Positions 29,445-56,492 of a stretch of 64,000 bases of DNA are shown in pieces. A program made the translations under genes and the position numbers. Each line of letters begins with the position of its first letter. The stretch's first letter is position 1. A model generated the notes under the pieces. The model saw only the letters and a program-made list of their open reading frames with translations. It had not been told where the DNA came from and did not search any database. Source of the stretch: an uncultured bacterium (GTDB taxonomy: Bacteria > CAZDME01 > JAYEMH01); contig CAZDKO010000001.1 in assembly GCA_964506075.1 (NCBI GenBank), positions 25,637 through 89,636 of the forward strand. Direction: 5' to 3'.

Positions 29445-29458
29445 ATTGTATTTTGTAT

Positions 29459-32261: not shown

Positions 32262-32270
32262 AATTTACAA

Positions 32271-33338: not shown

Positions 33339-33340
33339 GG

Positions 33341-34282
33341 CTATTTCTCTTTCAATAATAAGTTTGCAATTTCGTTTTTGATTTTTTCCGGTTTAATAAA
33401 TTCCATACAATTTATTTTCTGGATGCATTTAGAATCATGACAGGGAATACATTTATAAGAAGTTTCAGGTAAAATTTTAACCCCTCTCCCGTATAGAAAG
33501 ACTTCTTTGGAAGAGGTGGGTCCAAAAAGAGCGATAATCTTTTTCTTTAAGGCAATGGCTAAATGCATTCCTAAACTGTCATTGGTAACAATTAACCGGC
33601 AGGAGTTAATCCAGTTGATATATTCATGGAGCTCGTTTAAGCCCTTCTGCCATGATATTTTATATCTCTTTTTTAAAAGACTTTCCAGCTTATTCCAGTG
33701 TTTTTCGGGCCAGCTCTTATTCGGCCATTTATTGCCGGCAATCCAGTTAAACCCAACGTCATATTTTACCAGAGAAGCCGGATTATAGCCAAGAATATAT
33801 TCTTTTTTTTCAGTCCACTTTTCTCCGACCATTGAAGCCAGGGCATCCTGCCAGAATTTTAAATTTTCTTTCTTTTTTTCTAAATCAAGACAGAGACTTA
33901 AAACCTTTTCCGCTCCGTCATAAGCCTGCGCCACGCCGCGGTTAACGTCAAATCTGAACCCGAATCTTCTCCAGGCATTAATGGAATCAGAAAAAGCACA
34001 GATGCCGGGGCCCTTTTCCAGATTAATGACCGTATCAAAACGTTCCCGCTGAAGCTGTAGAACCGATTCAAGGTTAAAAATTAATATCCGGTTGATAAAA
34101 GGGTTATTTTCCAGGAGCGGATAAGCTTTTTCGTCAACCAACCAGGTAACATCATCGTCTTTTAAATAGTTTAAAATTACCGTGGTTCTTAATACGTCCC
34201 CGAGGCTGGTGGTAGTGCTTATTTCCTTATCCAGTGTTTCCGAATATCCCAATTTGATGATTAAAACTTTTTTTGCCGTCAT
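33341..34282 (-). CDS. GT9-family glycosyltransferase (heptosyltransferase-like)
   Basis: ..LIVTNDSLGMHLAIALKKKIIALFGPTS.. is the GT9 C-terminal signature. Length is 313 aa. Confidence 0.6.
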   Translation of the reverse strand: MTAKKVLIIKLGYSETLDKEISTTTSLGDVLRTTVILNYLKDDDVTWLVDEKAYPLLENNPFINRILIFNLESVLQLQRERFDTVINLEKGPGICAFSDSINAWRRFGFRFDVNRGVAQAYDGAEKVLSLCLDLEKKKENLKFWQDALASMVGEKWTEKKEYILGYNPASLVKYDVGFNWIAGNKWPNKSWPEKHWNKLESLLKKRYKISWQKGLNELHEYINWINSCRLIVTNDSLGMHLAIALKKKIIALFGPTSSKEVFLYGRGVKILPETSYKCIPCHDSKCIQKINCMEFIKPEKIKNEIANLLLKEK

Positions 34283-34319
34283 AACGCCTCCACTAAAAGT
34301 TTAATTTTAAATAGTTTTA

Positions 34320-36257: not shown

Positions 36258-38532
36258 TGATGTATCTCTTTAATCCTGAATAATTATAGAGAAGCATTAC
36301 TGAGATGATTGAAAGCCCCAGAAAATAACAGAATAAAGTGAACACATATAATTTAGGCTTGTATATAAATCTCAGTGTATGCTCGCCTTTATCAATAATA
36401 ACAGACTTAAAAGCTAAATTAGCTTCATATATTACGCCCTGTTTTCCGTTGATAAAGACTTTCCATGATTTGTCAAAAGCGTCACCGTAATAAAGTAAAC
36501 TGTCTCTCTCCGCATTAATGTCCAGAATAATTTCATTAGGGCCGAATTTTTTTACCGTGATTTCTCCGCAAGTTTCGTTGTTTACGTTATCCGGTGATTT
36601 CTCTAAATGAGAATAAGCGGAGGGTAAATTTTTCTCGATAAAAATTACCTGCCGGGCAGTATCGGGGTCTATTTTACTTAAGGCTTCGATTATTTTATCC
36701 CGCGGTAAAACGATGACGTTAGAAACAAGCCGAAGTTTAGGAGCGGATATGCCCGCCAGGATGCTTTTAATTTCATTGGGAATTTGCTGGTGATTGGCAA
36801 ATTCAAAAAAATCCTTCATTTCATAAATGTGGGTGGTGACGTCGCGGGCTTTAGTGCTGTAAGCGGTAAATATTTTAAGCGTTGCCGGCACAAAAGCATA
36901 AAAAGGATATTTAGGACCGATTACTGGAATCCGGTAGTTTTCTTCAGGCGGTTTAACCGAATACAATAAAGGGGGGGTAATTCTCGGCAAAGTTACGAAA
37001 TTGTAAACATTGCTGTTAAACAGAGCCAAATCAACGATTATAAAAAATAATATCAGGGTATATTTAGTTTTTATATTTATCTTTTTAAAGTTTAATAAAA
37101 TGAAAATAAGAGGTATGCCGATAACGAAAAAGATTAAATTGGAATCAGATAAAGAAAGTGAATCTTGAAGCGTGGCTTTTAAGGCGTCGTTCATATACGC
37201 TAAATAGCCCAATAAAATGTGATATTTTAAAGTTAAAAAATTACTGAGACTGATGGTATTGGCATTGATTAACCAGGCGAAAAAGCATATCAGCACGCCT
37301 AAAAAGAAATAAGGTATTTTATAAAACTTGAGTCTGGATTTAAAGGCGGCTTCAAAAATTACATCCGAGCCGATACAGGTGAAATAAACTAAACAAAAGA
37401 TGAAAAAGGGGCCAAAAGTATGGGTGTTTCTAATTATTGAGAAAAAAGGGAAAAATTTATTAAAAAATAAGTAGAGGGGGCTTCTGTACCCCAACATCAA
37501 ACTCATGGTCAGTAAAATAGTTATTATGAATCCCCATTTATATTTATGACGGGAAAAACCCATTCCGAATATAGCCAGAAAAAGAGGAATTAACCCAATA
37601 TACAGAAAAGATTCAGATACATAATACCAGTTAAAGAAATGCAATATGAAAGAGTAAGGAGTAAGAAGATTTAAAAAATCAGCCGGAAAAGAATGGGCGG
37701 CGAAAGGGGCTTCGAACATTTTTACCGTGGGAACCACATCATAGGTATAAGCTAAATAAATAGGCAGAATTTTTATTGTTAGAAGAAATAATATGGATAA
37801 GGCCAAAAAACTGACGGCTTTATGGTTTTTTAAGAACATGCCTAATTTCGGCCAGCGGATGCTTTTGGATAAAAGTAAAGACAATAAAAGAATAGTTACC
37901 GAACTTATTATGAACATTGAATGGTAGGAGGGCAGTGTTATCCCTAAAAAAAGTACCGTTAATAAAAGGAATTTAGGTTTCTGCTCCTCCAGGAATCTTA
38001 CGGACGAATATACGATCCAGGGTAGTAAATAAAAGGCTAAAAGGAAAGCGTGCTGTCTTAAATAAGAGGTAGAGAAAGACGAAAAAGAGATGGCGACAAA
38101 AGCAAGGAAAGCACTGATTTCATATCTGGCTACATGCCGGTAAAAAAAGTATGCCCCGCAGATAAAGATCAAATAGCGTAAGAATAAATCCCAGTGGTAA
38201 AGGGTGAGTAAATTAATATGTAACAGCTTGCCGGTCAAAATTAACAGCAGCGTTGAAGGATCAGATAGATGAAGGATATTTATGTTTAGAAAAAAGATTT
38301 CCCCGCAGTTCATATAGGGATTCCAGAAGGACCAGACGCCGTGCTGGAGATTATCGGCAAAGTAATGGAATATTCCATACCAGATGATACTGTCATGTGA
38401 AACCATTAATTTATTGGAAATTAATAGTTGCCATTGTAGAATTATCAAGCCCGAAACAACAAAAGCGATGGCTAAGAAAATTTTTAAAATTTTGTGCTTT
38501 AACATAGCTAAATATTTAATAGTTAGAAACAA
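36238..38532 (-). CDS. Large polytopic membrane protein, GT-C-like (YfhO-like layout)
   Basis: 764 aa. About 14 TM helices followed by a C-terminal beta-rich domain and one terminal TM helix. The start overlaps the upstream gene by 20 nt. Confidence 0.35.
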   Translation of the reverse strand: MFLTIKYLAMLKHKILKIFLAIAFVVSGLIILQWQLLISNKLMVSHDSIIWYGIFHYFADNLQHGVWSFWNPYMNCGEIFFLNINILHLSDPSTLLLILTGKLLHINLLTLYHWDLFLRYLIFICGAYFFYRHVARYEISAFLAFVAISFSSFSTSYLRQHAFLLAFYLLPWIVYSSVRFLEEQKPKFLLLTVLFLGITLPSYHSMFIISSVTILLLSLLLSKSIRWPKLGMFLKNHKAVSFLALSILFLLTIKILPIYLAYTYDVVPTVKMFEAPFAAHSFPADFLNLLTPYSFILHFFNWYYVSESFLYIGLIPLFLAIFGMGFSRHKYKWGFIITILLTMSLMLGYRSPLYLFFNKFFPFFSIIRNTHTFGPFFIFCLVYFTCIGSDVIFEAAFKSRLKFYKIPYFFLGVLICFFAWLINANTISLSNFLTLKYHILLGYLAYMNDALKATLQDSLSLSDSNLIFFVIGIPLIFILLNFKKINIKTKYTLILFFIIVDLALFNSNVYNFVTLPRITPPLLYSVKPPEENYRIPVIGPKYPFYAFVPATLKIFTAYSTKARDVTTHIYEMKDFFEFANHQQIPNEIKSILAGISAPKLRLVSNVIVLPRDKIIEALSKIDPDTARQVIFIEKNLPSAYSHLEKSPDNVNNETCGEITVKKFGPNEIILDINAERDSLLYYGDAFDKSWKVFINGKQGVIYEANLAFKSVIIDKGEHTLRFIYKPKLYVFTLFCYFLGLSIISVMLLYNYSGLKRYINEKTNQ

Positions 38533-38535
38533 ATG

Positions 38536-39996
38536 TTATACGTATATTTTAATTAACGCTTCTAAAAGCTTAAAGCTAAGTTTAATCAGCCCGCCCCACT
38601 CCTTTGGTTTTAAATACCACTTTGGGGGAAGATAAAACCAGCCGGCCGGCCCTATTCTTTTTATCAATAGTTCCATAACCCTGTTTAATCTTAAAGAGAA
38701 AAGAAGGTTGGCTTTGATTATGTCTTTTCTTAATGTCTCTTCATCGGTTGTTATCGGAACGTAAGGCAATTTCGCCTGGGTTTTGGAATCCTGGACCAGT
38801 GAGCCGCAGGCATTAAGATTACCCCAGTCTTTTTCGATAAAAAGCCTGCCTTCGGCTTTGGCGATTTCATATAATTTGGTTCCCGGATAGGGAGTAGCGT
38901 TATTAAAGCGGACATAATCCAGATTCAATTTTTTAGCTAATTTATAATCCTGCCATCTTTCTTCTCTGGTTTCGGTGGGGAGACCAAATATAAATGTTCC
39001 GGAAACCTCGAAGCCGTGTTGCTTAGCCATTTTTACCGCTTCAATATTGGCCTGCACGGTTTCTCTTTTATTCAATATGACCATTAATCGTTCCGAAGCA
39101 GTTTCCAATCCAAAATTAATCAATCTAAAGCCCGCTTGTTTCAAAATATCAAGCATATTGTCATTAACCGCATCGGCTCTCGTCTGACAATCAAAAGTTA
39201 TTTTTTTATGAAATTGTTTTTTTATTATACCTTCGCATAGTTCAATGACTCTTTTAGGGTTAGCCGTAAAATTATCGTCAAGGAAATTAATGTGGGTTTG
39301 TTTATATTTGTTGACCAGAAGGTCTATTTCATCAAGGACAATCGCCGTAGGCACATAACGAAATTTCTGCCCGGAAATTAATCGCTGGCTGCAAAATATA
39401 CAGTCGTAAGGGCATCCCCGGGAACTGGCGATAAAACTAAAATTATATCTGCCGATGTCTTTCTCAAAGAGATAATAGGGAAAGGGGGAGAGCTGACTTA
39501 GCTCGGGTAAATCAGTATCGGGGTTATGAATGACTTCTCCGTTCTTTTTAAAAGACAGTCCTTTTATATTTGAATAGTCGCCTCTATTTTTAATCGCCTC
39601 GTAAAGAGTCACTAAAGTTTCTTCTGCTTCGCCGCGAAGGACAAAATCAATGTCGGCATTTTCTAAAACTTCTTCAGGGAGGACAGTCGGATGAATTCCC
39701 CCCGAAATAATTTTTGAATCCGGATATAAAGTTTTGATTAAACGGGCAATTTCTTTACTTCTTCCCACGCAGGCGGTTAAAGTGGATAGACCAAAGATAT
39801 ATGGCGGGGAGGTAGTTTTGACGGATTCTTTAAGTAAATCTCTGGATATGGGTTGGATATGTTCATTGACTATGGTTATTTTTTTACCGTGAGAAAGTAA
39901 GCTTGAGGCTAAATAACCGATGCCGATAGGAACACTCAAAGGGACATATTTATCAAAAATACCGAATTTGGTTGATTTTGGATTTATTAAAATCAT
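38536..39996 (-). CDS. B12-binding-domain radical SAM protein (class B)
   Basis: An N-terminal Rossmann-like B12-binding region (MILINPKSTKFG..IGIGYLASSL..) followed by RGCPYDCIFCSQ (CX3CX2C). Length is 486 aa. Confidence 0.65.
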   Translation of the reverse strand: MILINPKSTKFGIFDKYVPLSVPIGIGYLASSLLSHGKKITIVNEHIQPISRDLLKESVKTTSPPYIFGLSTLTACVGRSKEIARLIKTLYPDSKIISGGIHPTVLPEEVLENADIDFVLRGEAEETLVTLYEAIKNRGDYSNIKGLSFKKNGEVIHNPDTDLPELSQLSPFPYYLFEKDIGRYNFSFIASSRGCPYDCIFCSQRLISGQKFRYVPTAIVLDEIDLLVNKYKQTHINFLDDNFTANPKRVIELCEGIIKKQFHKKITFDCQTRADAVNDNMLDILKQAGFRLINFGLETASERLMVILNKRETVQANIEAVKMAKQHGFEVSGTFIFGLPTETREERWQDYKLAKKLNLDYVRFNNATPYPGTKLYEIAKAEGRLFIEKDWGNLNACGSLVQDSKTQAKLPYVPITTDEETLRKDIIKANLLFSLRLNRVMELLIKRIGPAGWFYLPPKWYLKPKEWGGLIKLSFKLLEALIKIYV

Positions 39997-44985: not shown

Positions 44986-47709
44986 ATGAATTGTAGATTT
45001 TTCAAAATCGTCAGATTACTCCTCGGAAAATTTTTATTATTTTTAATTTTAGCCGGGTTTATTTTTTCACCTTTCGCCTTTGCCTCTAATGATGACTATA
45101 GTCCTTATGGAGTTATGACTCACTTTGAAAGGCCGGATTTCTATAAGATTGATGACCTTAGAAAAAGCTGTAAATTAATTAGAGAGGCCGGAATACAGTG
45201 GGTGCTTACCTGTTTTAACTGGAAAGATGTTGAACCGCATCAAGGCCATTTTGATTTTTCCCAGACGGATAGAATTGTATATATCACTTCTTCCCATAAT
45301 TTAAAGTTGATGCCTTTAATCTGGCTCTGTCCTGAATGGGCGGAAGATTCTTCGGGAGGCGGCAAAGAAAAAGAATCTTATCTTTATCCCCCCCGGGATA
45401 AAGAGGAATTCGCCAATTTTGTTTATCAGCTGGTAAAAAGGTATAAAAATAAAATTAAATACTGGCAGATTTGGGGGGAAGAAAATACCCCCGGCCGGTG
45501 GCTACCCGAATCAGACCCGGCGGCATACCTTGATTTACTCAAAGCTTCCTACCAGAAAATAAAAGAAGCCGACCCGGAGGCCAAAGTTGTTCTGGGAGGT
45601 TTGGCTTTGCATGATTTAGACAAATTTTTAGAAAAACTCTATCAGCTTGGCGGTAAAGATTATTTTGATATTCTGGCGATCAATCCTTACGTTCACCCCA
45701 CGCTTAATTATGACCCTTATCTGGATAAAAAAGGGGAAGCCCTTGAACTTTTAAAAGATTATATTTTCAGCGTCCGCCAGATTATGGCCAAGCACGGAGA
45801 TTCTTTAAAACCGTTATGGATAACCGAAATAGGTTCTCCCGGACAGGACCAACCGGGAGATTGGTGGTTACTGGGAGAAACTCCGACCGAACAGGAACAG
45901 GCCGAATGGGTGACGAAAATCTACACCGAACTTCTAAAAGAAGACCTGGTTGATAAAATATTCTGGTATAATTTCAGAACCCCGCCCGACCAGCTAAAGG
46001 CCCGCGCTGGTTTGGTGGAAACAGATTACCGGATAAAACCGGCTTATCAGGCTTATAAAAAACTGCCCAAACTCAAAAAACGCCAGGGCTTTAATGTTTT
46101 TCTTATTTCCGTCGATTGTCTGCGGCCCGACCACTTAAGCTGTTACGGTTACTGGCGGCCGACGACTCCGACCATTGATAAACTGGCTGGAGACGGAGTG
46201 AGATTTGCCCGGGTAATCTCGGTGGCCCCCTGGACATCGCCTTCTTTAATTTCTTTACTTACCTCTTTATACCCGCCGGTGCACGGGGTGGACGGACGAA
46301 CCAGATCTTTACCGGAGGGAGCGCCGACGCCGATTAAGATATTGAAAAATCTGGGTTACCTGGTTCCCGGAATATCTTATATTCACACCGTCTGGAATTA
46401 TCAGAATTTAGGGTTTGACGTCGTTAAAGAACCCACCCGTTTTGAAGAAAAAAATGAAGAGGTCCGAATTAACGAATGGCTGGATAAGAACTACCGAAAA
46501 AAGTTCTTTTTCTGGCATCATTTTTATACGCCTCATATACCGTATAATCCCCTGCCTGAGTACGAGAAACTCTTTTTACAAGATGAAAAGGAGCTCCCCC
46601 GGGAGATTAGAAAAAAACTGCGTTTTGTCCGGACTCAGCCGGCCATTCGAGAAGGGGAGTTAAGTTTTACGGAAGAGGAACTTTTCTATATTATATCTCT
46701 TTATGATGCGGAGATAAGACAGTTAGATGACCAGATAGCTTCGGTGGTGAATAAACTTGAAGAGCTGGGTATACTTTATAAGACTATTCTGGTTATTACG
46801 GCCGACCACGGGGAAGAATTTCTTGAACACGGTAATATCGGACACGCCTCAACCACTTTAGCGGCCAGTTTGTATGATGAGTGTCTGCGCATTCCGCTTA
46901 TTATGTGGAATCCCCGCCTTTTACCCCGGTCTGAAATAATCAGCCAGCAAATCCAGAATATAGATATTATGCCGACCATATTTGAGCTTTTAGGTATTGA
47001 TTTAAATATACCGGTAGACGGTAGTTCTCTTATCCCTTTAATTCAGCAGAAAACCGATAAACCCCCCAGGGAATATGCTTTTAGTGATACCACCCCCGGC
47101 GGTTTTCAATCTACCGAGGAACAGGAAAAAAGAAGAATTAATTCCATAAGAACAGAGGATTGGAAATTAATTTATAATTACAGTTCAGAAAAGGAAAATT
47201 ATCTTTTATTTAATTTAAGAGAAGACCCGAAGGAAGAAAAAAATATAATTGAAGATTATCCGCAGATAGTCCGGCAGTTGACTTTTCAGCTTCGCAGATG
47301 GGTTTTTAACTGTCTGGTTAAAAGGAAATGGTTTCTGGCTCAAGGTAAAAAAAAGGAGGAGAAACTCCTTCCCCCTGATTTAGCGGGTAAGATCAGCTCT
47401 CCGGAAGTTATTTATCCCGGCGATAATTCAAATTTAACATACGAAGAAAACAGCGGGAAAGTTATTCTTGAATGGACCGGTGACCCCCGGCTTTCATATA
47501 TCGTTGAATACGACGTCGGTCTTGGTAATTTTAATATGAAAGGTGATTTCCCGTCCGAAGGTACCCGTCAGGAATTTGGTCCTATCCCTAAGGACGTCTG
47601 GAAGCTTTTACCCGCTTATAATCCCTGGAAATTCAGGGTTAAGGTTAAAGGCCAGGAAAATTTACGTAGCCGATGGATTCGTTTTAATTTTTCCCTCCCC
47701 GAAGAATAA
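44986..47709 (+). CDS. Secreted two-domain protein: glycoside-hydrolase-like TIM barrel plus an alkaline-phosphatase-superfamily (sulfatase-like) domain with a non-canonical active site
   Basis: Signal/TM, then ..LTCFNWKDVEPHQGHFDFSQTDRIV.. (GH5/GH42-like barrel). At about residue 370: FLISVDCLRPDHLSCYGYWRPTTPTIDKLAGDGVRF..APWTSPSLISLLTSLYPPVHG. This aligns to the sulfatase signature AP-x-C-x-PSR with Cys->Thr and Arg->Leu. Confidence 0.5.
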   Translation: MNCRFFKIVRLLLGKFLLFLILAGFIFSPFAFASNDDYSPYGVMTHFERPDFYKIDDLRKSCKLIREAGIQWVLTCFNWKDVEPHQGHFDFSQTDRIVYITSSHNLKLMPLIWLCPEWAEDSSGGGKEKESYLYPPRDKEEFANFVYQLVKRYKNKIKYWQIWGEENTPGRWLPESDPAAYLDLLKASYQKIKEADPEAKVVLGGLALHDLDKFLEKLYQLGGKDYFDILAINPYVHPTLNYDPYLDKKGEALELLKDYIFSVRQIMAKHGDSLKPLWITEIGSPGQDQPGDWWLLGETPTEQEQAEWVTKIYTELLKEDLVDKIFWYNFRTPPDQLKARAGLVETDYRIKPAYQAYKKLPKLKKRQGFNVFLISVDCLRPDHLSCYGYWRPTTPTIDKLAGDGVRFARVISVAPWTSPSLISLLTSLYPPVHGVDGRTRSLPEGAPTPIKILKNLGYLVPGISYIHTVWNYQNLGFDVVKEPTRFEEKNEEVRINEWLDKNYRKKFFFWHHFYTPHIPYNPLPEYEKLFLQDEKELPREIRKKLRFVRTQPAIREGELSFTEEELFYIISLYDAEIRQLDDQIASVVNKLEELGILYKTILVITADHGEEFLEHGNIGHASTTLAASLYDECLRIPLIMWNPRLLPRSEIISQQIQNIDIMPTIFELLGIDLNIPVDGSSLIPLIQQKTDKPPREYAFSDTTPGGFQSTEEQEKRRINSIRTEDWKLIYNYSSEKENYLLFNLREDPKEEKNIIEDYPQIVRQLTFQLRRWVFNCLVKRKWFLAQGKKKEEKLLPPDLAGKISSPEVIYPGDNSNLTYEENSGKVILEWTGDPRLSYIVEYDVGLGNFNMKGDFPSEGTRQEFGPIPKDVWKLLPAYNPWKFRVKVKGQENLRSRWIRFNFSLPEE

Positions 47710-47877: not shown

Positions 47878-48510
47878 ATGAAAAACTTATTAAAATTTCT
47901 CTCTGAGTTCTCGCCGGTAGCGGTTATGGTTGCTTCTTTAATGTTAACTTTAACCGTGGTTAGCCTGGTCATTTTAACCGGTTACTATGCCTGGGAAACA
48001 AGAGCCTTAAGGAAAATCGCTTCCAAAGCCGTTTTTGCCGAACTTTCTCCCCAGGTTTTTCTGGAAATTTCCGATTCTATAACCGAGGTAAATAGAGATG
48101 AAAAAGATAAAGGTCTCTATATAGCGGTCACGGTTGATATAAAAAACGCCGGGAAAACAGCCGCCAGTCAGATTCAAGGCGGGTATGAGATATTTTTTAA
48201 AGAGGAGAAAAAAGAAGAGGGAATACTCCCGCTTTTACCGGTTTTATTTCCTTCCCAGAATTTACCCGTGCTTTTTAAAACGATTTTTATTCCTCTGGAT
48301 GATAAACAACTGGATAGTTTTACCGAATTGATAAATAACAGGAGAAACCCACAAAACCCAACGGTTAAAGACAGCGATAAGATTATTACGCCGGTGATGT
48401 TAAACGTTCATTTTAAATATATTGACCCGGCCGGGCAAAGTCAGAATTACGGGAGCAGGTTTATATATATCCCCGTTACCCAAAAATGGATGTATACACA
48501 TGAGCAGTAG
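47878..48510 (+). CDS. Hypothetical membrane-anchored protein
   Basis: One N-terminal TM helix (VAVMVASLMLTLTVVSLVILTGYYAW). No recognisable family. Confidence 0.4.
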   Translation: MKNLLKFLSEFSPVAVMVASLMLTLTVVSLVILTGYYAWETRALRKIASKAVFAELSPQVFLEISDSITEVNRDEKDKGLYIAVTVDIKNAGKTAASQIQGGYEIFFKEEKKEEGILPLLPVLFPSQNLPVLFKTIFIPLDDKQLDSFTELINNRRNPQNPTVKDSDKIITPVMLNVHFKYIDPAGQSQNYGSRFIYIPVTQKWMYTHEQ

Positions 48511-49129
48511 ATTAAGAAAAGAGCTGGCTGGATTCGGCCGGAAGCTCTTTGAAAAAGGATTAATTCATGGTTCGGGCGGGAATATAAGCGCGCGGGAAGG
48601 GAAATTTGTTTATCTTTCCCCGAGCGGGTTTTATCTTAATAATATTAAGCCTTCCCAGCACATTAAGCTGAATTTAAGAACCGGTAAAAAAGAAAATTCT
48701 GTTTTAAAGCCCACCTGCGAAACCCCTATGCATCTGGCCTGTTATCGAGCCAGAAGTGATATTCAGGCGGTCATCCATGTCCACCCTCCTTTTGCCATTG
48801 CTTCAAGCTGTGCCGGAATAACCCTCAGAGCTTTATTTCCGGATTTTGTCGTTTTAATCGGGGATAAGGTGCCTTTAGTTCCTTATTTTATTCCCGGCTC
48901 TCAAATTATCGGGGAAAGATTTAAAAAGATTTTTAAAAAATATTCAGCCGTCTTGATTCAGAATCACGGACTGGTTACCGTGGGTAAAAATCTTTCCGAG
49001 GCCTTTCTCCGGGCAGAAATTATTGAGGAAGCGGCTAAGATTTATTACCTGGCTCGCTCACTGGGCCGGGTGAGGTTTCTATCCAAAAAAGAAATAGTGG
49101 AGATTGAAAAGAAATATAAAGGGAAATAG
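48500..49129 (+). CDS. Class II aldolase/adducin-family protein (fuculose-phosphate aldolase / MTRu-1-P dehydratase-like)
   Basis: MSSRLRKELAGFGRKLFEKGLIHGSGGNISAREG..AVIHVHPP..NHGLVTVG. The likely start is ATG 48500, in frame inside the longer track ORF that starts at 48422. Confidence 0.65.
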   Translation: MSSRLRKELAGFGRKLFEKGLIHGSGGNISAREGKFVYLSPSGFYLNNIKPSQHIKLNLRTGKKENSVLKPTCETPMHLACYRARSDIQAVIHVHPPFAIASSCAGITLRALFPDFVVLIGDKVPLVPYFIPGSQIIGERFKKIFKKYSAVLIQNHGLVTVGKNLSEAFLRAEIIEEAAKIYYLARSLGRVRFLSKKEIVEIEKKYKGK

Positions 49130-49130
49130 A

Positions 49131-49290
49131 TAACAGAGTACAGATTACAGAGAACAGAGTGACGAAAAAGTAAATAAAGAATTAAGGATTAAGACGCTCA
49201 CTTTGTTCGCTCTAAGAATTAAGGAATATAAGTAAAATAAATACTTAATTCTTAATCCTTAGTTCTTAATTCTGGATTATCTGTCATTTA
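49131..49290. repeat. Intergenic heptad-word repeat (ACAGANN array plus ATTAAGG/CTTAAT words) containing the 36-bp element copy at 49175-49210
   Basis: acagagt|acagatt|acagaga|acagagt; aggattaagacgCTCACTttgTTCGCTctaagaatt; cttaattcttaatccttagttcttaattc. Confidence 0.6.
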
Positions 49291-49310
49291 ACAGTTAAGG
49301 TCACACAGCT

Positions 49311-50222
49311 ATGTTTACCCAAATGTTAAGCCAGATCAGTATTCTTTTATTAATGGTTTTTATCGGGGTTTTAGCCCGGTTCACCAAAATTTTAACCGAG
49401 CCGGTTACCCGGGACCTGAATAAATTAATTATTGGTCTGACCCTGCCTATTTTATATTTCTACGTTCTGATTGAACAAACCTCCCGGGAGATTCTGTTTT
49501 CCAGCTGGTATCTGCCTTTTCTGGCCGTCGGTATTGTTCTGGGCGGTTTTTTCCTGGCGCGTCTATATACCAAATTGGTTTCTATTCCGCCCGAACAAGA
49601 AAAATCTTTCTTATATCTTTCTTCGTTCACTAACTGCGGATTTTTATCCATTCCTTTAGCTCTTTTTCTTCTGGGAGAAGAGGGGATGGTCAGGGTGGTT
49701 ATTTTTAATCTGGGTTTTTCGGTTCTTATCTGGACCCTGGGAGTAAGTATTCTGGGTGGGAAAAAAAAGGTGAAGTTGATTTTTAAAAATCTGTTTAATG
49801 CCGGGACCGTCGCTTTAGTATTAGGTTTTATCGGTGTAATTGCCGGCTTGAAATTACCTTATGTGGTCAGCGGCGCTTTGGGCCCTATTGGTAAACTGAC
49901 CATTCCTTTAGCGATGCTTCTTATCGGCGGGATACTGGCCGGCCGGGAGATTCATAAAAAAATTGAATTCAAACTGATTGTCCCCTTGATTTTAATCCGT
50001 TTAGTAATTATTCCTTTTTTAGCTCTGGTTATCGGTAAGCTTCTGGTTTTTCCTCCTTTTATTCAAAGTGTCTTTGTCCTTCAGGCGGCGATGCCTTCAG
50101 CTTCAACCACCCCCATCTTCGTTCAGCGTTATGGCGGTGAAGCAGAGTTGGCCGGTTCAGGTGTATTCTTTACCCATATTATTTCCATCGTCACCGTTCC
50201 TTTCTGGATAAGTCTGATATAA
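49311..50222 (+). CDS. AEC-family (auxin efflux carrier / MdcF-like) transporter
   Basis: 303 aa with about 10 TM helices in two 5-TM halves, the typical AEC layout. Confidence 0.55.
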   Translation: MFTQMLSQISILLLMVFIGVLARFTKILTEPVTRDLNKLIIGLTLPILYFYVLIEQTSREILFSSWYLPFLAVGIVLGGFFLARLYTKLVSIPPEQEKSFLYLSSFTNCGFLSIPLALFLLGEEGMVRVVIFNLGFSVLIWTLGVSILGGKKKVKLIFKNLFNAGTVALVLGFIGVIAGLKLPYVVSGALGPIGKLTIPLAMLLIGGILAGREIHKKIEFKLIVPLILIRLVIIPFLALVIGKLLVFPPFIQSVFVLQAAMPSASTTPIFVQRYGGEAELAGSGVFFTHIISIVTVPFWISLI

Positions 50223-50449
50223 AATTCTCACCCAATTCCTATTTTCCTAACCCTACCAAAATGCATAAAAATACATAAGCGATAAGTGTGTGAGTAAATC
50301 TTTAATTTTATATAAAATTAGATCAAATTTAACAGAAAATTCGACTTTTTAAAAGAGATTGTGGTATACTTATTATAATTAGGGTACCTACCTAAAAAAC
50401 GCAGGAAATTACCAACCTGAATAATCACAGAAATAAAAAAGGAGAGAAA

Positions 50450-51658
50450 ATGCAAAAAATATTAATTGGTTTGTTTTTAACCATTATCCTGGTTTTGTCT
50501 TCATCCTCTGTTTCTCAGGCGCTTACCTGGGAGATAAATGAGATTTCAACCACGGCCAACAATTTCTCCCCCCAGATAGACGGAAGCAAAGTGGTCTGGG
50601 CGGGAGCCGACGATTATACTGCCGACATATATCTCTACGATATCAATACCGGAACGGCCGCCAACATTTCAAATAATTCTGAGACAGATAGTTCTCCTCA
50701 GATAAGCGGGAATAATGTCACCTGGTATGGTAGTAACGATTATGATATATCCTTTTATAATGGCACAGAGGTAACGAATATTACCAACAGCCCGGGTTTT
50801 TATGACCTATACCCCGAGATAGATGGAAGCAAGGTGGTCTGGGGAGGAAGAGTTATAGGCACTAGCGTGGCTGAAATATATCTTTACGATTACAGCACCG
50901 GAGGGACAACTAATCTTTCCAACACCCCAGATTACGGTGATGTGGATCCCCGGATAAGCGGGAATTATGTGGTTTGGAACGGGGGCTCTTCCTCCGGACA
51001 AAGCCAGATATACGGTTATAACGGGACGGCGAAAATCCAAATTACAAACAACCTTTATTCAAATACAGCTCCCCAGATAAGCGGAAATTACGTGACCTGG
51101 AAGGGTTATTACAGCGGTAATTACCTCATAGGGCTTTACGATTTTAGTACCGGTGAGACAACTAATATTTATAGTGGTACCACTTGGCACGCTTCACCTC
51201 AGATAGGCGGGCATTATGTAACCTGGCTTCAAAGTGACGGCGTATACCTTTACGATATTGAGACCACGAATATGATTCAGCTTTCCACCAATTATTATTC
51301 CAGCGGGTATAACATAAGCGGGAATAATGTGGTCTGGTGTGAATATGAGAGTATCAACCCCGATCCTTTCGATCCCTTTGGTTCAACAATGTATAAGTAT
51401 GAGATATTCTTTTATGATGGGTCAAATGTAACTCAGATTACCGATAACGGCGAGACCCTGTTTGAGTCTTATTCTGCTCCGGTAATAGACGGGAATAACG
51501 TGGTTTGGACGGCGGATAGGGCCGTATTTCTGGCCAAAGGGTTAGGGGATGAAGAAGAAGAGGAAGAAGAATTAATCCCCGAACCGGCCTCACTTTTGCT
51601 TTTGGGGATGGGGGTATTGGGAATAGGGTTGTTCAGGAGGAGAAGGTTGTTGGGATGA
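50450..51658 (+). CDS. Secreted PD40/TolB-like beta-propeller repeat protein with a PEP-CTERM sorting signal
   Basis: Signal peptide ..SVSQA|LTW. About 8 repeats of the form SPQIDGSKVVW..DIYLYDINTGTAANIS. An acidic stretch EEEEEEE is followed by IPEPASLLLLGMGVLGIGLFRRRRLLG (PEP motif, TM helix, Arg cluster). Confidence 0.75.
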   Translation: MQKILIGLFLTIILVLSSSSVSQALTWEINEISTTANNFSPQIDGSKVVWAGADDYTADIYLYDINTGTAANISNNSETDSSPQISGNNVTWYGSNDYDISFYNGTEVTNITNSPGFYDLYPEIDGSKVVWGGRVIGTSVAEIYLYDYSTGGTTNLSNTPDYGDVDPRISGNYVVWNGGSSSGQSQIYGYNGTAKIQITNNLYSNTAPQISGNYVTWKGYYSGNYLIGLYDFSTGETTNIYSGTTWHASPQIGGHYVTWLQSDGVYLYDIETTNMIQLSTNYYSSGYNISGNNVVWCEYESINPDPFDPFGSTMYKYEIFFYDGSNVTQITDNGETLFESYSAPVIDGNNVVWTADRAVFLAKGLGDEEEEEEELIPEPASLLLLGMGVLGIGLFRRRRLLG

Positions 51659-51815
51659 GTCTGATATAAAATTTCAACTTATTTTCTATTTTTTCTCCGG
51701 ACATTTCACCCTATTACCGCAATTTGATTTCTGATAAAAAAATATGCTATAATTAACCTGTACAAAAACCTACAGAGATTAATTACCAGAATTACCACCT
51801 TATTATAATAATAGA

Positions 51816-53090
51816 ATGAAAAAATCAGTGATTTACTTATTTTCTTTCCTTAGCGCCGCGATTATTCTCGGTATTTTCCCTTCTTCAGGTTTTACCCAAA
51901 CGCACACCATTACCCAGCTTACGGCGCCAGACATAACAGAGGCAGATGAACCTAGAATAAATAACAATGGAGAAGTAGTCTGGTCTGGAGTCGATGAGAA
52001 CGGTAATTATCAGGTACTCTTTTACGATGGTACCACCACATATCAACTTACAGATGATGATAATGATAATTATATGCCTCAGATAAATAACAATGGTCAG
52101 GTAGTTTGGTTGGGAGCTGGCGATATATATTTCTGGGATGGAATACATCCGGCCGGTCCTACCATAACCCGGGTTACCACCACTGACTATTGGGAGAACT
52201 CCTACCATATCAACGATAACGGAGAAATTGTCTGGTATGGTGGTCCGGGCGGCGTGAGCATGAATTATGAAATATATTTCTGGGACGGAAATGATTCCTA
52301 CCAGATTACGGATAATACTTTAGGAGACCATGAACCTAAAATCAACAATAATGGTCGGGTAGTCTGGAATAAGTTTGATGGTCATGACCTGGAAATATAT
52401 TTCTGGGATGGGATAAATCCGGCCAGTCCTACCACAATCCAGATTACCAATAATACTTTGAGTGCTCAATATCAACAGATAAACAACAATGGACAGGTAG
52501 TCTGGTGTGAAGGTTATCATAATGGCGGTAATGAAGACCTATATTTCTGGGACGGAATGGACCCTCTGAACCCCAACATCATCTCGCTGGGCATGGAAGG
52601 CAATGGCAGGTCCTATTATCCCCAGATAAACAATAACGGAGCAGTAGTCTGGTATATGCATGAGTATGATCTTGACCCGGAGAGTGAAGAAGATGATTAT
52701 GAAATCTATTTATGGGACGGAACTAGCATTATCCAGATTACCGATAATGACTTTGATGACGGGGTAGACGGGGTACAGATAAACGATAATGGAGACATAG
52801 TGTGGGTGGGCGGAGTTTTTTGGGGTGCAGGAATAAATACTGAATTATACTTTTATGATGGTTCTACCGGACTTATTACCCAGCTTACCGAGGATACGGC
52901 AACCCACTATTCTCCCCAAATAAATAATAATGGGGATATAGTCTGGTACAGTTACAATGAAGATGAGGAAATGGTCGTCTTGTTTGCCAGCAGAGACCAG
53001 GGTGAAGACGTCATTCCCGAACCGGCCTCACTTTTGCTTTTGGGGATAGGGGTGGTGGGTATAGGGTTGTTCAGGAAAAAGAAAAATTAG
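51816..53090 (+). CDS. Secreted beta-propeller repeat protein with a PEP-CTERM sorting signal (paralog)
   Basis: Signal peptide. Repeats PQINNNGQVVW..EIYFWDG..QITDN. The C-terminus is IPEPASLLLLGIGVVGIGLFRKKKN. The roughly 60 nt encoding the sorting signal is nearly identical to 51579-51640. Confidence 0.75.
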   Translation: MKKSVIYLFSFLSAAIILGIFPSSGFTQTHTITQLTAPDITEADEPRINNNGEVVWSGVDENGNYQVLFYDGTTTYQLTDDDNDNYMPQINNNGQVVWLGAGDIYFWDGIHPAGPTITRVTTTDYWENSYHINDNGEIVWYGGPGGVSMNYEIYFWDGNDSYQITDNTLGDHEPKINNNGRVVWNKFDGHDLEIYFWDGINPASPTTIQITNNTLSAQYQQINNNGQVVWCEGYHNGGNEDLYFWDGMDPLNPNIISLGMEGNGRSYYPQINNNGAVVWYMHEYDLDPESEEDDYEIYLWDGTSIIQITDNDFDDGVDGVQINDNGDIVWVGGVFWGAGINTELYFYDGSTGLITQLTEDTATHYSPQINNNGDIVWYSYNEDEEMVVLFASRDQGEDVIPEPASLLLLGIGVVGIGLFRKKKN

Positions 53091-53158
53091 TTAAAAACGA
53101 CCGCCCGCCTTTATCGGGTAAAAGAAGGCAAAAAATAGTATCCGATATTTAATTCCGG

Positions 53159-53197
53159 AAGACGTAACTATTCTAAAATGGTTACGTCTTTTTTTAT
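53159..53197 (+). terminator. Rho-independent terminator after the PEP-CTERM pair
   Basis: aagacgtaac..(12-nt loop)..gttacgtctt forms a 10-bp perfect stem followed by T7. Confidence 0.65.
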
Positions 53198-53279
53198 TCC
53201 GATAGCCAGGGAAATATGCTAAGCTTAGGCAATAAAACAATTGCGTTCCGCCGGGGAAAATTTTAAATAATTAGAAAAA

Positions 53280-56200
53280 ATGAATTTCGAAGAATTTTTA
53301 AATACATTAGAAGATTATCCTCAATTTAAAGAATGTCTAAAGGAATTATCTTTAAATAAAAACATAGAGGTTACCGGTTTAGTTCCCGGGGCCAAAGCCT
53401 TTTTATTGGCCGGACTGGGAAAATCTTTAGCCAGGCGGATTTTATTGGTTGCGCCGGGTATAGCTGAAGCCGAGCAGATTTCTCAGGATATTAACTCTTT
53501 TGGCCATAAGGTTTATAATTTTCCCGCCTGGGAAATTTTACCCAAGGAAGAGCTTCTGCCGCACAGTGATATTGTCGGAGAGCAGCTCAGGATTTTAAAA
53601 ATTTTAAAAGACGAGAAAAATTATCCACCCGCCTTTTTTGTCGCCTCAGCCAAAGCATTTTATCATAATATTTTATCTCCCTCCCGCTTTGACCATTTGA
53701 GTTTTGAACTGGTTGAAGGTCACGAATGTAATCTGGACGGGCTCATTAAGAAACTGGATAAAGGCGGCTACAGCCGTTTACCCCTGGTTGAAGAAAAAGG
53801 AAATTTTTCTCTCCGGGGAGGCATCCTTGACATTTTCCCTTTAAATGAAGAAAATCCGGTCCGGATAGAATTTTTTGGCGATGAGGTTGAGTCCATCCGC
53901 TATTTTGACCCCCTTACCCAGCGGTCTTTAAAAAAGGTAAAAAGGATTTTTATCCCGCCGGCCCTGATCCAGGGAGAGAGCAGTTTACTGGAATATCTAT
54001 CTTCTGTAGATTCAATAATTCTGGATGAACCGGTTTTAATTAAAGAACAATTAACCGAGACCGTCTGGCAGAGATTTATTTCTTTTTTAAAAAAGAAGAG
54101 TAACCTTTATCTTTCAAGCCTGGCTCAATCTTTACCCGATTTACCGGTTCCTTTAAATATCCGGTTTACCTCCGGAGCAGTCGACGTTTTATGGGAGGAT
54201 TTTTCCGCTTTTATTTTCCGGCTTAAAAAATGGCAGGCAGATGATTTTAAAATTGCCCTGGTTTCTCAAAACGAAGGGGAAGCGACGAGACTTAAAGAAC
54301 TGCTTCAGGAAAATAAGATTGAGGCGACGGAGAATATATTTTTTACCATAGCGGAATTAAATCACGGATTTATTTTACCTGATTTAAAAATAATTTTAAT
54401 TACCGACCGGGAAATTTTTCATCGCTATTCTGAAAAAAGGCCGCGGCAGCGTTTTAAAGGTGGACTGCCTATTTCTACTTACCGGGAGCTGGAAAAAGGT
54501 GATTTAGTGGTTCATCTGAATTACGGTATCGGTAAATATCAAGGGATAAAAAAATTAAAAATTCAAGAGGGGAAAAAAGATTTTCTGGCCATTGAATATC
54601 AAAATAACGATATTCTTTATGTCCCTATAGAACAGGTAAAGCTGGTTCAAAAATATGTCGGGATTGAAGGTAGTGTCCCGAGATTATATAAGCTGGGTGG
54701 AAATGCCTGGTTTAAGGTTTTAAAAAGAACTAAAAAAGCTTTAAGAGACATGGCTTCCGAACTTTTAGCCCTCTACGCTAAAAGGCAGATGAAATCCGGC
54801 TATGCTTTTCCGGCAGACAGCCAATGGCAGCAAGAGTTTGACAGTGCTTTTATCTACGAAGAGACTCCTGACCAGAAAGAAGCGATTCTGGAAGTAAAAA
54901 GAGACCTGGAGAGGTCCCGCCCGATGGACCGTTTGATTTGTGGTGACGTCGGTTACGGGAAAACCGAAGTCGCCATGCGGGCGGCTTTTAAGGTGGCTAC
55001 CGAAGGAAAACAGGTAGCCGTACTTGTCCCCACGACTATTTTAGCCCAGCAGCATTTCTATACCTTTCGCGACCGGATGGCCGATTATCCCATCCGGATT
55101 GAAATGTTAAGCCGCTTTAAAACGCCTGAAGAACAAAAAGAAATTGTTAAAGCCCTGGCGAGTGGAAAAGTAGATATAGTTATCGGTACGCATCGTCTCC
55201 TTCAATCCGATATAAACTTTTATAATCTGGGTTTACTGGTAATTGATGAAGAGCAGCGTTTTGGGGTTGCCCATAAAGAGAAGATAAAAAAAATTAAAGA
55301 ACTGGTCGATGTTTTAACCCTGACGGCGACTCCTATACCGCGCACTCTTTATATGTCTCTTACCGGCATGCGTGATTTAAGCGTTATTGAAACCCCCCCG
55401 CGGGATAGATTGCCTATTGAAACCTTCGTTCTGGAATATGACGAAAAAATCGTGGTGGAAGCCATCAGAAGAGAAAGAGAGAGAGAAGGGCAGGTGTTCT
55501 TTGTTTATAACCGGATAAAACATATTTATAAAGTCGCCGGGAAACTTGGTGAAGTTATGCCCCATTTAAGAATTGGTGTTGCCCACGGAAGGATGAATGA
55601 AAGAGAGCTGGAAAAAGTGATGTTGCGCTTTATTAACCGTGAAATCGACATTTTGGTTTCTACCACTATTATTGAGTCGGGGCTGGATATTCCCAATGTT
55701 AACACCATTATTTTAACTAACGCCCATCAGTATGGCTTAGCCGACCTTTATCAACTTAGAGGCCGGGTCGGCCGATATAAACACCGGGCTTACGCTTATC
55801 TTTTTATTCCCAAAGGAGAGATAATTACCGGGGAAGCCATTAAACGTTTAAAGACCATGGAAGAGTTTACTGAACTGGGGGCAGGAATCCGTATCGCCAT
55901 GCGTGATTTAGAAATTAGAGGGGCAGGTAACGTTCTTGGCCCCCAGCAGCATGGATTTATTACGGCCGTGGGCTTTGATTTATACTGCCGCTTGCTCCAG
56001 GAATCTGTAGCTGAATTAAAGGGGGAGTTTCTGCCTGGACCGAAGCTGGAGACTAAAATTAATCTGGATGTTCCGGAATACATTCCTGACGAGTATATCC
56101 CGGAGGCCAGACAGAAGGTGGAAATTTACGCCAAAATATCTTCCCTGAATTCTTTAGAGGATTTAGAGGACCTGAGGAGAGAACTCATTGACCGGTTTGG

Positions 56201-56492
56201 CTCCCCTGATGAAGAAATGCAGATCCTTCTGGATGTGGCGGAGGTGAGAATGCGGGCTAATTCCCTGGGGATTGAAAGAATATACCGGGAAAAATCTAAC
56301 CGAAGAATTAATCTCCAATTTAATCCTGAACATACGCCCGATATTTCAAAAATTGAGGGTTTGGTTAAAAATAGCGAAGTTCAACTTTATTTTTACCAGG
56401 ATAAAGAGAACCGGGTAAGTCTAAAGCTGAATTGGGATGGAGAGGATAGAGTCGGCCTCTCTCTTTTGAAAAAGATATTGCAGAAGCAGTAA
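53280..56492 (+). CDS. mfd: Transcription-repair coupling factor
   Basis: UvrB-homology N-domains, an RNAP-interacting domain, and a superfamily-2 translocase with Walker [24 protein letters not shown] and [11 protein letters not shown]-terminal TRG-containing domain is present. Length is 1070 aa. Confidence 0.9.

What the first reader, a model, noticed from the sequence alone, without database searches (positions are those of the whole stretch)
50450..53090. Tandem PEP-CTERM beta-propeller proteins with nearly identical sorting signals and no exosortase in the window
Both proteins consist of about 8 PD40/TolB-like blades (S-P-Q-I-x-G-x-x-V-V-W ... IY-x-YD). They end in an acidic linker plus PEP-A-S-LLLLG-x-GV-x-GIGLFR-(R/K)4. 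The roughly 60 nt encoding the signal are almost identical (51579-51640 versus 53019-53078), while the propeller bodies have diverged (PQISGN versus PQINNNG repeats). That suggests gene conversion or a recent duplication of the anchor. PEP-CTERM proteins require an exosortase and usually accompany polysaccharide-export loci; none is recognisable within 64 kb.
Basis: partly seen in the sequence, partly recalled or inferred. Interest (0 to 1): 0.55.

Follow-up and report, generated by a model that had tools for sequence, protein, structure and literature searches.

The report
Two neighbouring PEP-CTERM propeller surface proteins
Two adjacent genes in a Ratteibacteria-like (PVC-group) bacterium encode ordinary secreted eight-bladed beta-propeller proteins with a standard PEP-CTERM surface-sorting tail; the only unusual feature is that recombination has made the tail-coding DNA nearly identical in two otherwise old, diverged genes.

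Summary
Gene A (50450-51658) and gene B (51816-53090) each encode a signal peptide, eight propeller blades, an acidic linker and a PEP-CTERM tail that scores above the curated cut-offs. The tail-coding DNA is 57/61 nt identical. Sixteen of 19 shared residues use the same codon, against 5.8 expected (P~1e-6). The bodies share only 30% of residues.

The bodies belong to two old subfamilies, and dozens to over a hundred database proteins are closer to each than they are to one another. So the shared tail reflects recombination or gene conversion, not recent whole-gene duplication. A 40-nt copy of the upstream transporter gene's 3' end follows gene A and supplies its stop codon. This marks a head-to-tail recombination joint.

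The closest relative found, a Ratteibacteria MAG, has the transporter gene directly followed by mfd, without either propeller gene. A triplet of such genes in an unrelated metagenome contig shows a similar sharp-edged 3' conversion tract.

No exosortase lies within the 64 kb. That is normal, because PEP-CTERM genes are usually scattered. The rest of the genome could not be retrieved, so the exosortase question stays open. The "adjacent GT-C locus" is 10.5 kb away. Verdict: a new member of a known kind, of low to moderate interest.

The parts
49311..50222 (+). AEC-family (Mem_trans) transporter gene, the left flank of the insertion. Its last 17 nt plus the following 23 nt form repeat copy H.
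   Evidence: Pfam PF03547 at 131.8 bits. The ortholog in L006 ends with the same ...VPFWISLI* and is followed directly by mfd.
50206..50245 (+). Repeat H, copy 1: the 3' end of the transporter gene plus the start of the intergenic region.
   Evidence: Direct repeat D15, 40 nt at 80% identity, with the first 21 nt matching 20/21. The motif occurs only twice in the window, with 0.03 expected.
50341..50370 (+). Sigma-70-like promoter candidate for gene A (TCGACT-18-TATACT with TG). This is a consensus match only.
50450..51658 (+). Gene A, 402 aa. It has a Sec-type signal peptide (aa 1-24, ...VSQA|L), eight blades (aa ~26-365), an acidic linker D367-E374, a PEP-CTERM tail (aa 376-399) and the residues LLG before the stop.
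   Evidence: TIGR04275 scores 111.1 bits against a cut-off of 85, with 8 stretches. PF07589 and TIGR02595 are above their cut-offs. AF2 gives pLDDT 89.3 with helices at 2-16 and 379-401. Foldseek's top match is the eight-bladed Tako8.
51578..51638 (+). Homogenised tail tract, copy 1, encoding PEPASLLLLGMGVLGIGLFR.
   Evidence: 57/61 nt identical to 53016-53076. Codon test P~1e-6. No stable RNA fold, z = +0.9.
51639..51652 (+). Recombination joint between tail tract T and repeat H'. It has no counterpart after B's tail or before H.
   Evidence: Alignments.
51653..51692 (+). Repeat H', copy 2 of the transporter gene's 3' end. It supplies gene A's TGA stop codon.
   Evidence: D15. H' differs from H at 1 of 21 positions, whereas the L006 ortholog differs from H at 4 of 21.
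51724..51753 (+). Sigma-70-like promoter candidate for gene B (TTGATT-18-TATAAT with TG, 10/12 matches).
51816..53090 (+). Gene B, 424 aa. It has a signal peptide, eight blades of the PQINNNGxVVW type, a short acidic linker and a PEP-CTERM tail (aa 400-423).
   Evidence: PF07589 scores 27.7 bits and TIGR02595 24.2 bits. TIGR05002 scores only 28.4 bits against a cut-off of 50. AF2 gives pLDDT 87.8. Foldseek matches S9-peptidase, DPP-IV and TolB propellers. The protein is 100% identical to P0067, an NCBI entry on a 132,672-bp contig.
53016..53076 (+). Homogenised tail tract, copy 2.
53157..53192 (+). Terminator-like hairpin with a T-run downstream of gene B.
   Evidence: 16-pair stem. Inverted repeat I17.
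53280..56492 (+). mfd, the right flank of the insertion. It was used to identify the lineage.
   Evidence: 68% identity over residues 1-1056 to Candidatus Ratteibacteria MAG086 (L006). All other loci are at 52% or less.

Best explanation
Genes A and B encode two secreted, very acidic, Cys-poor, eight-bladed beta-propeller proteins. No catalytic domain was detected. They are most likely binding or matrix modules of the cell surface.

Each has a Sec signal peptide and a C-terminal PEP-CTERM signal, made of a PEP motif, a transmembrane helix and a basic cluster. The inferred route follows what is established for this family. Sec exports the protein. The C-terminal helix holds it in the inner membrane, with PEP at the periplasmic face. 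An exosortase encoded elsewhere in the genome cleaves at PEP and passes the propeller on towards the outer surface or exopolysaccharide layer. The window encodes a secretin, so the envelope is diderm.

On their evolution, the two bodies are old paralogues from different subfamilies. A is the PxISGNxVVW / TIGR04275 type, which often carries PEP-CTERM. B is the PQINxNGxVVW / NxxGxxAF-like type, which rarely does. They sit as a lineage-specific ~3 kb insertion between a transporter gene and mfd.

The junction at A's 3' end reads tail tract, 14 nt, then a copy of the transporter gene's 3' end. This shows that two cassettes, each once lying directly downstream of that transporter gene, were joined head to tail by recombination. 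The near-identical 61-nt tail-coding tract is a recombination or gene-conversion tract. It is not the product of protein-level selection.

Shown here: gene structures, family scores, fold, the repeats, the codon statistics, and absence of the genes in the relative. Inferred: the exosortase dependence, the surface location, the binding role, and the exact order of recombination events.
For: PEP-CTERM HMMs score above the curated cut-offs in both proteins. The AF2 models have N-terminal and C-terminal helices. Composition matches the PEP-CTERM cohort described by Haft 2006: high S/T/N, one Cys each, and 45 or 64 acidic against 14 or 13 basic residues. The upstream non-coding regions are 227 nt and 157 nt and each carries its own promoter-like site, as Haft reports for more than 65% of such genes. 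A secretin (PF00263, 133 bits) is encoded in the window.

Evidence for old paralogy: A against B scores 97 bits by BLASTP. B ranks 67th among A's hits, at 74 bits against a best of 204. B's best non-self hits score 148-257 bits. Blades cluster by gene (41%) rather than by position (33%).

Tail modularity: 21/120 A-type hits have PEP-CTERM-like tails, against 3/120 B-type hits including B itself.

Recombination: the codon test gives 16/19 against 5.8 expected, P~1e-6. The H/H' repeat is unique to these two sites. The rest of the upstream regions is not significantly alignable. L006 lacks both genes between the transporter gene and mfd.

A parallel case exists in L086. Genes g1 and g3 have bodies 59% identical in nucleotides, yet share a near-perfect tract from about -130 to +33 nt around the stop codon, with sharp borders.
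Against: No exosortase was seen, and the rest of the genome could not be examined. Haft 2006 records one genome, Chlorobium tepidum, with two PEP-CTERM proteins and no EpsH.

At the protein level the tail is close to the general PEP-CTERM consensus. Unrelated database proteins match 18-20 of 24 residues. Only the synonymous-site evidence therefore argues for recombination. The tract is short, 61 nt with 4 differences, so the timing and direction of the exchange are uncertain. No ligand or function is known for either propeller subfamily. Signal peptides were judged by inspection and by the AF2 helices, not by a dedicated predictor.
Confidence: 0.7

Rival explanations
1. A and B arose by a simple in-situ tandem duplication of one ancestral gene. 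The bodies then diverged rapidly, through diversifying selection and within-gene blade homogenisation. Purifying selection kept the tail, and no later exchange occurred.
For: The head-to-tail geometry has nearly equal repeat spacing: H/H' at 1447 nt and T/T' at 1438 nt. The blades of each gene resemble one another more than those of the other gene. This could reflect concerted evolution.
Against: Sixty-six database proteins are closer to A than B is, and at least 119 proteins score 148 bits or more to B, against 97 bits by BLASTP (74 by HMMER) for A against B. Each subfamily has its own widely conserved blade consensus. Purifying selection on the protein does not preserve synonymous codons. 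It would also not preserve the non-coding H' copy at 20/21 while the adjacent upstream regions are unalignable.
Confidence: 0.1
2. The PEP-CTERM-like tails are orphan or decayed signals. The genome has no exosortase, and the C-terminal helix acts only as an inner-membrane anchor.
For: There is no exosortase in 64 kb and only two PEP-CTERM genes were seen. A precedent exists in C. tepidum. The nearest relative's syntenic locus lacks the genes.
Against: Both tails keep all three elements, and the substitutions between them are conservative (M/I, L/V, R/K). Both score above the curated cut-offs. Both proteins show the typical PEP-CTERM compositional bias. PVC-group bacteria are classic PEP-CTERM/exosortase hosts according to Haft 2006. 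Only about 64 kb of the genome was examined.
Confidence: 0.1
3. The tandem arrangement is an assembly artefact. Two strain haplotypes of one locus, transporter-A-mfd and transporter-B-mfd, were concatenated in a metagenome assembly.
For: The structure looks exactly like two alternative occupants of the same slot placed one after the other, each preceded by the transporter gene's 3' end. The source appears to be a metagenome-assembled contig (relatives).
Against: H' is not an exact copy of H and T' is not an exact copy of T. The longest exact shared run is 32 nt, which from general knowledge is shorter than typical final assembler k-mers. The 14-nt joint is unique sequence and gives gene A an in-frame ending and a stop codon. 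The identical B protein in the NCBI record probably comes from the same assembly, so it is not independent evidence.
Confidence: 0.07

Closest known systems
PEP-CTERM / exosortase (EpsH, XrtA) protein-sorting system (Haft et al. 2006, PMC1569441; TIGR02595, PF07589)
   Same: The tail sits at the extreme C-terminus and has a PEP motif, a hydrophobic helix and a basic cluster. The proteins have an N-terminal signal peptide and a low-Cys, Ser/Thr/Asn-rich, acidic body. The genes are single units with long upstream regions in a diderm host of the PVC supergroup. Tails are more alike within a genome than between genomes.
   Different: The cognate exosortase and EPS locus were not observed, since only 64 kb was available. 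Here the within-genome tail similarity is shown at synonymous sites with a recombination joint, which the 2006 description does not report.
TIGR04275 'beta_prop_Msarc' beta-propeller repeat proteins (PF26549 Tricorn_N-like hits among homologues)
   Same: Gene A scores 111 bits against a cut-off of 85, with eight ~40-aa repeats of the PxISGNxVVW...IxxYD type. Homologues carry many alternative C-terminal modules.
   Different: A is anchored by PEP-CTERM in a bacterium. The family was named from Methanosarcina proteins. Its function is unknown.
TIGR05002 NxxGxxAF 'choice-of-anchor' tandem repeat proteins
   Same: Gene B's blade motif INNNGxVVW has the NxxGxx(V/A)(W/F) pattern. Its homologues end in diverse modules such as dockerin and PKD.
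   Different: B scores 28 bits against a cut-off of 50, so it is a relative and not a member by the curated threshold. PEP-CTERM is rare among its closest relatives (3/120).
TolB / Tricorn / S9-peptidase beta-propellers (PD40-type blades)
   Same: The four-stranded blade fold is shared. Foldseek gives probability 1.0 with E-values of 1e-9 to 1e-11.
   Different: A and B have eight blades, whereas from general knowledge TolB has six and Tricorn six or seven. They lack the TolB N-terminal domain and any peptidase domain. Sequence identity is 9-17%. TolB HMM scores are far below the cut-off, and Pfam gives no PD40 hit.

Membership tests
PEP-CTERM sorting domain (TIGR02595 / PF07589) | HMM score above the curated cut-off, with the domain at the extreme C-terminus | tested here: met
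   PF07589 scores 26.7 and 27.7 bits against 20.7. TIGR02595 scores 20.9 and 24.2 bits against 16. The domains end 3 and 1 residues before the stop codon.
PEP-CTERM sorting domain (TIGR02595 / PF07589) | Pro-Glu-Pro motif, then a hydrophobic transmembrane stretch, then a basic cluster | tested here: met
   The tails read IPEPASLLLLGMGVLGIGLFRRRR and IPEPASLLLLGIGVVGIGLFRKKK. AF2 predicts helices at 379-401 and 403-423.
PEP-CTERM sorting domain (TIGR02595 / PF07589) | N-terminal signal peptide and no internal transmembrane segment | tested here: met
   The N-termini are MQK-hydrophobic-VSQA|L and MKK-hydrophobic. AF2 predicts N-terminal helices at 2-16 and 2-19, with an all-beta body in between. 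No dedicated signal-peptide predictor was available.
PEP-CTERM sorting domain (TIGR02595 / PF07589) | Host with an inner and an outer membrane | tested here: met
   A secretin (PF00263, 133 bits) with an AMIN domain is encoded at 9188-11803. The lineage is Ratteibacteria-like, in the PVC supergroup.
PEP-CTERM sorting domain (TIGR02595 / PF07589) | Cognate exosortase (EpsH/Xrt) in the same genome, usually with several more PEP-CTERM genes | not testable with these tools
   There is none in the 64-kb window. The source genome is not retrievable. The tail-based protein searches could not identify same-genome paralogues.
TIGR04275 beta_prop_Msarc repeat protein | Whole-protein score of at least 85 bits from tandem ~40-aa repeats | tested here: met
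   Gene A scores 111.1 bits with 8 stretches. Gene B does not hit this model.
TIGR05002 NxxGxxAF choice-of-anchor repeat | Whole-protein score of at least 50 bits | tested here: not met
   Gene B scores 28.4 bits with no stretch passing on its own. It shows motif resemblance only.
TolB (TIGR02800) / PD40 repeat (PF07676) | TolB equivalog score of at least 343 bits, or a PD40 Pfam match | tested here: not met
   TIGR02800 scores 24.3 bits for A and 15.6 bits for B. Neither protein has a PF07676 hit at E<=1. The similarity is at fold level only.
Eight-bladed beta-propeller fold | Closed propeller of eight four-stranded blades | tested here: met
   Each protein has eight sequence repeats. The confident AF2 models have 33 and 32 strands. 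The top structural match for A is the eight-bladed designer protein Tako8, with target-normalised TM-score 0.67. Among B's best matches is dipeptidyl peptidase IV (query-normalised TM-score 0.65), whose propeller is eight-bladed by general knowledge. Model coordinates were not inspected directly.

The most novel reading that the evidence does not exclude
The slot between the transporter gene and mfd may be a cassette-exchange site for surface propeller genes. In this reading, the PEP-CTERM-coding 3' end and the transporter gene's 3' end act as short homology arms. Different propeller bodies would be swapped or stacked through these arms. The sorting-signal DNA would then double as a recombination handle, giving an uncultured PVC-group lineage a way to vary its surface proteins. 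The recurrence of sharp 3' conversion tracts that extend past the stop codon in an unrelated tandem array (L086) hints that this could be general for PEP-CTERM paralogues.
Probability: 0.2. Interest if true: 0.5.

Novelty: new member of a known kind. Interest (0 to 1): 0.22.

Why it matters
This documents PEP-CTERM surface proteins in a Ratteibacteria-like genome, a candidate phylum with almost no functional description. It also gives a clean nucleotide-level example of how the modular PEP-CTERM tail is moved or homogenised between unrelated protein bodies. That offers a mechanism for the long-known observation that these tails are more alike within a genome than between genomes. It changes no general understanding of the exosortase system. 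It does warn that the absence of an exosortase in a 64-kb neighbourhood is not informative.

Tried and rejected
1. Recovering the source genome failed.
- Exact-protein look-ups for A, B, Rho and P0067 found nothing.
- The 29-nt tail string has no match in genome contigs.
- A degenerate tail pattern in metagenome-contig hit only five contigs carrying unrelated PEP-CTERM genes from other organisms.
- The cluster look-up for P0067 gave no accession or name.

2. A tail-profile search of the 5.8-billion-protein index returned only 100 short candidates and did not even recover B (two searches were parameter errors). The full HMMER scan recovered B. Otherwise it showed only that the tail is close to the general PEP-CTERM consensus. 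Same-genome paralogues could not be identified.

3. RNA-level selection on the tail is rejected. Folding z-scores are +0.9 and +0.5, and there is no Rfam hit in 48000-54000.

4. Homology of the two promoter/5'UTR regions is not significant beyond the 40-nt repeat. In the two scoring schemes, 185 and 64 of 1000 shuffles reach the observed score, despite an apparent MAFFT alignment.

5. A dispersed-motif explanation for the H repeat is rejected. The motif occurs only twice in the window and in none of the 92 loci.

6. An integron or tRNA-island style insertion is rejected. The only tRNA is at 20969, and no integrase family appeared among the Pfam/NCBIfam hits for the window's ORFs.

7. Glycosylation by the GT-C cluster has no support. 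Sequons are not enriched, and the cluster is 10.5 kb away on the other strand.

8. The literature search found no statement on exosortases or PEP-CTERM in Ratteibacteria.
Full report
**What is there**

The window holds two + strand ORFs at the stated coordinates: A at 50450-51658 (402 aa) and B at 51816-53090 (424 aa). Both carry a C-terminal PEP-CTERM domain above the curated thresholds. PF07589 scores 26.7 and 27.7 bits against 20.7, and TIGR02595 scores 20.9 and 24.2 bits against 16. The tails read IPEPASLLLLGMGVLGIGLFRRRR(LLG) and IPEPASLLLLGIGVVGIGLFRKKK(N). An acidic linker precedes each tail, DEEEEEEE in A and DQGED in B. Both proteins start with a typical Sec signal (MQK..., MKK..., then a hydrophobic stretch). 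A pattern scan of all six frames finds no other PEP-CTERM ORF in the window.

**The bodies**

Each protein has eight repeats of about 37-57 aa (the truncated last units are 21 and 28 aa). A uses (S/A)PQI(S/D)G(N/S)xVxW ... IYLYD. B uses PQINNNGxVVW ... EIYFWDG ... QIT.
- A is a member of TIGR04275 ('beta_prop_Msarc'), with 111 bits against a cut-off of 85 and eight stretches.
- B only weakly resembles the TIGR05002 NxxGxxAF 'choice-of-anchor' repeat, with 28 bits against a cut-off of 50.
- The TolB models score far below their cut-offs, and Pfam gives no PD40 hit.
- AlphaFold2 models built on alignments of 61 and 66 sequences are confident (pLDDT 89.3 and 87.8, pTM 0.85 and 0.84). They are all-beta between an N-terminal and a C-terminal helix.
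- By Foldseek against the PDB, A is closest to the eight-bladed designer propeller Tako8, then Tricorn, TolB and BamB. B is closest to S9-peptidase, DPP-IV and TolB propellers. Sequence identity is 9-17% throughout.
- No catalytic domain was detected by the family scans or the fold search. Both proteins are very acidic (45 acidic to 14 basic residues, and 64 to 13), have one Cys each, and are rich in Ser, Thr and Asn. This is the compositional signature Haft et al. reported for PEP-CTERM proteins (PMC1569441).

**The nucleotide observation**

The tail-coding DNA at 51578-51638 and 53016-53076 is 57/61 nt identical. It includes a 32-nt exact run that occurs only at these two sites in the window. 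At residues shared by the two tails, 16 of 19 codons are identical, against 5.8 expected from the window's codon usage (P=9e-7). In the bodies the figures are 56 of 102 against 41.4 expected, with 31% amino-acid and 47% nucleotide identity.

At the protein level the tail is not special. A full HMMER scan of 1.84 billion representatives finds 1761 proteins matching the tail profile, and unrelated proteins match 18-20 of 24 residues. The evidence for a recent shared origin of the tail DNA is therefore the synonymous-site identity. In addition, the codon string CTTTTGCTTTTGGG behind PEPAS was found in only five of 241 million metagenome records. The tract has no unusual RNA fold and no Rfam match.

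**A and B are not recent duplicates**

- A against B scores 97 bits by BLASTP.
- In A's homologue list, B (P0067) ranks 67th, at 74 bits against a best of 204.
- B's 119 listed non-self hits all score 148-257 bits.
- Each subfamily has its own conserved blade consensus across many organisms.
- Blades are more alike within a gene (41%) than between genes (31.5%), and there is no positional correspondence (32.9%).
- PEP-CTERM-like tails occur on 21/120 A-type hits but on only 3/120 B-type hits, including B itself. Other homologues end in dockerin, PKD, SLH, CBM or T9SS modules (Pfam columns).

The tail is thus a swappable module, and B may have received its tail locally. That direction is an inference.

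**The locus history**

The neighbouring mfd gene (53280-56492) is 68% identical to that of a Candidatus Ratteibacteria MAG (L006). Every other genome is at 52% or less. Ratteibacteria belong to the PVC supergroup.

In L006 the orthologous AEC-family transporter gene, which also ends ...VPFWISLI*, is followed after 100 nt by mfd and then pdxA. A and B are absent there. A and B are therefore most simply a lineage-specific ~3 kb insertion (loss from the L006 lineage is not excluded), with GC content like the rest of the window.

A 40-nt direct repeat at 50206-50245 and 51653-51692 has its first 21 nt matching 20/21. It copies the transporter gene's 3' end to a position immediately after gene A, and it supplies A's stop codon. 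The motif occurs nowhere else in the window or in the 92 fetched loci. The copy is closer to the window's own transporter gene (1 difference) than to that of L006 (4 differences).

Gene A's 3' end is thus a composite: tail tract T, a unique 14-nt joint, then H'. The remainder of the two upstream regions is not significantly alignable.

This geometry means each cassette once lay directly downstream of the transporter gene's 3' end, and that the two were joined head to tail by recombination. The data cannot decide which route produced this. The three candidates are unequal exchange between two haplotypes, duplication followed by replacement of one body, or later conversion of the tail.

**A parallel case**

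A JGI contig (L086) carries three tandem PEP-CTERM propeller genes. Genes g1 and g3 have bodies only 51% identical in amino acids and 59% in nucleotides. They nonetheless share a near-perfect tract from about 130 nt before the stop codon to 33 nt after it, with abrupt borders. Gene g2 is closest to g3 in the body (75%) but has a less similar tail. This mosaic extends into non-coding DNA and is typical of gene conversion. It shows that the phenomenon recurs.

**The exosortase question**

No ORF of 120 aa or more in the window that was scanned matches an exosortase or archaeosortase model; the three left unscanned lie inside or overlap other genes. This is not anomalous, for three reasons.
- Haft et al. 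found a median of 8 PEP-CTERM genes per positive genome. They are mostly single-gene units with more than 200 nt of upstream non-coding DNA.
- Here the upstream regions are 227 nt and 157 nt, each with its own promoter-like site, and a terminator-like hairpin follows B.
- Three homologues inspected in other organisms also have no exosortase within about 10 kb or to the contig end.

The envelope is diderm-type, since the window encodes a secretin and type IV pilus-like genes. The decisive genome-wide test could not be run. B's protein is in the collection, from an NCBI contig of 132,672 bp, but no accession, name or DNA could be retrieved. An orphan signal, as in Chlorobium tepidum, remains possible but is the less likely reading.

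**The 'adjacent GT-C locus'**

The glycan cluster contains three GT-C/TPR paralogues, radical-SAM enzymes, GT2, GT9, DUF2079 and a YfhO-like protein. It lies at 21134-39996 on the minus strand. Between it and gene A lie 10.5 kb holding cysS, an aldolase, a dehydrogenase, a sulfatase and the transporter gene. N-x-S/T sequons are not enriched in A or B. Nothing links the cluster to these proteins.

**Verdict**

These are ordinary members of a well-known class: exosortase-type PEP-CTERM surface proteins with propeller bodies of known repeat families. They sit in a poorly studied PVC-group lineage. The one feature worth recording is the nucleotide-level evidence that the sorting-signal DNA and a flank of the upstream gene mark a recombination joint and conversion tract between two old paralogues. 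Interest is low to moderate.

Noticed in passing
window 11991-14518: DNA polymerase I is split into a 5'-3' exonuclease ORF (11991-12860) and a polymerase-domain ORF (12851-14518, TTG start). The two overlap by 10 nt. This could be a genuine split gene or a frameshift.
   Followed up: no
window 302-11803: A type IV pilus / T2SS-like cluster. It holds a T2SSJ-like pseudopilin, a 1154-aa protein with only a PilX_N hit, and a long 545-aa PilM. It also holds a 256-aa protein with a weak Amuc_1100-family pilus-like hit (45 bits, cut-off 180) and a secretin with AMIN, TPR and STN domains. An Omnitrophota homologue of gene A (P0082) also sits next to pseudopilin genes.
   Followed up: partly
window 21134-39996 (minus strand): A large surface-glycan-type cluster. 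It holds three tandem GT-C (PMT-like) + TPR paralogues and four radical-SAM enzymes (two SPASM, one B12-binding). It also holds GT2, GT9, E1 alpha/beta dehydrogenase subunits, DUF2079, a YfhO-like protein and two 173-aa ORFs with no family hit.
   Followed up: partly
L086 7341-11095 (JGI Ga0373620_0009905): Three tandem PEP-CTERM propeller genes in an unrelated GC-rich organism. The first and third share a ~165-nt near-identical tract spanning the last ~130 coding nt and 33 nt past the stop, with sharp borders, while their bodies are 59% identical.
   Followed up: yes
window 49173-49278: Nested inverted repeats (22-nt arms, 91% complementary, 55 nt apart) in the intergenic region upstream of the AEC transporter gene. 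There is no Rfam match.
   Followed up: partly
window 44986-47709: A 907-aa protein combining N-terminal glycoside-hydrolase-like hits (GH10/GH42/GH39, weak) with a sulfatase domain (145 bits) and an SGSH_C domain. This suggests degradation of sulfated glycans.
   Followed up: no
proteins P0307-P0313: Several long database 'proteins' (900-2500 aa) contain 4-10 internal matches to the PEP-CTERM tail profile. They may be read-through or fused gene calls across tandem PEP-CTERM genes, or true multi-tail proteins.
   Followed up: no
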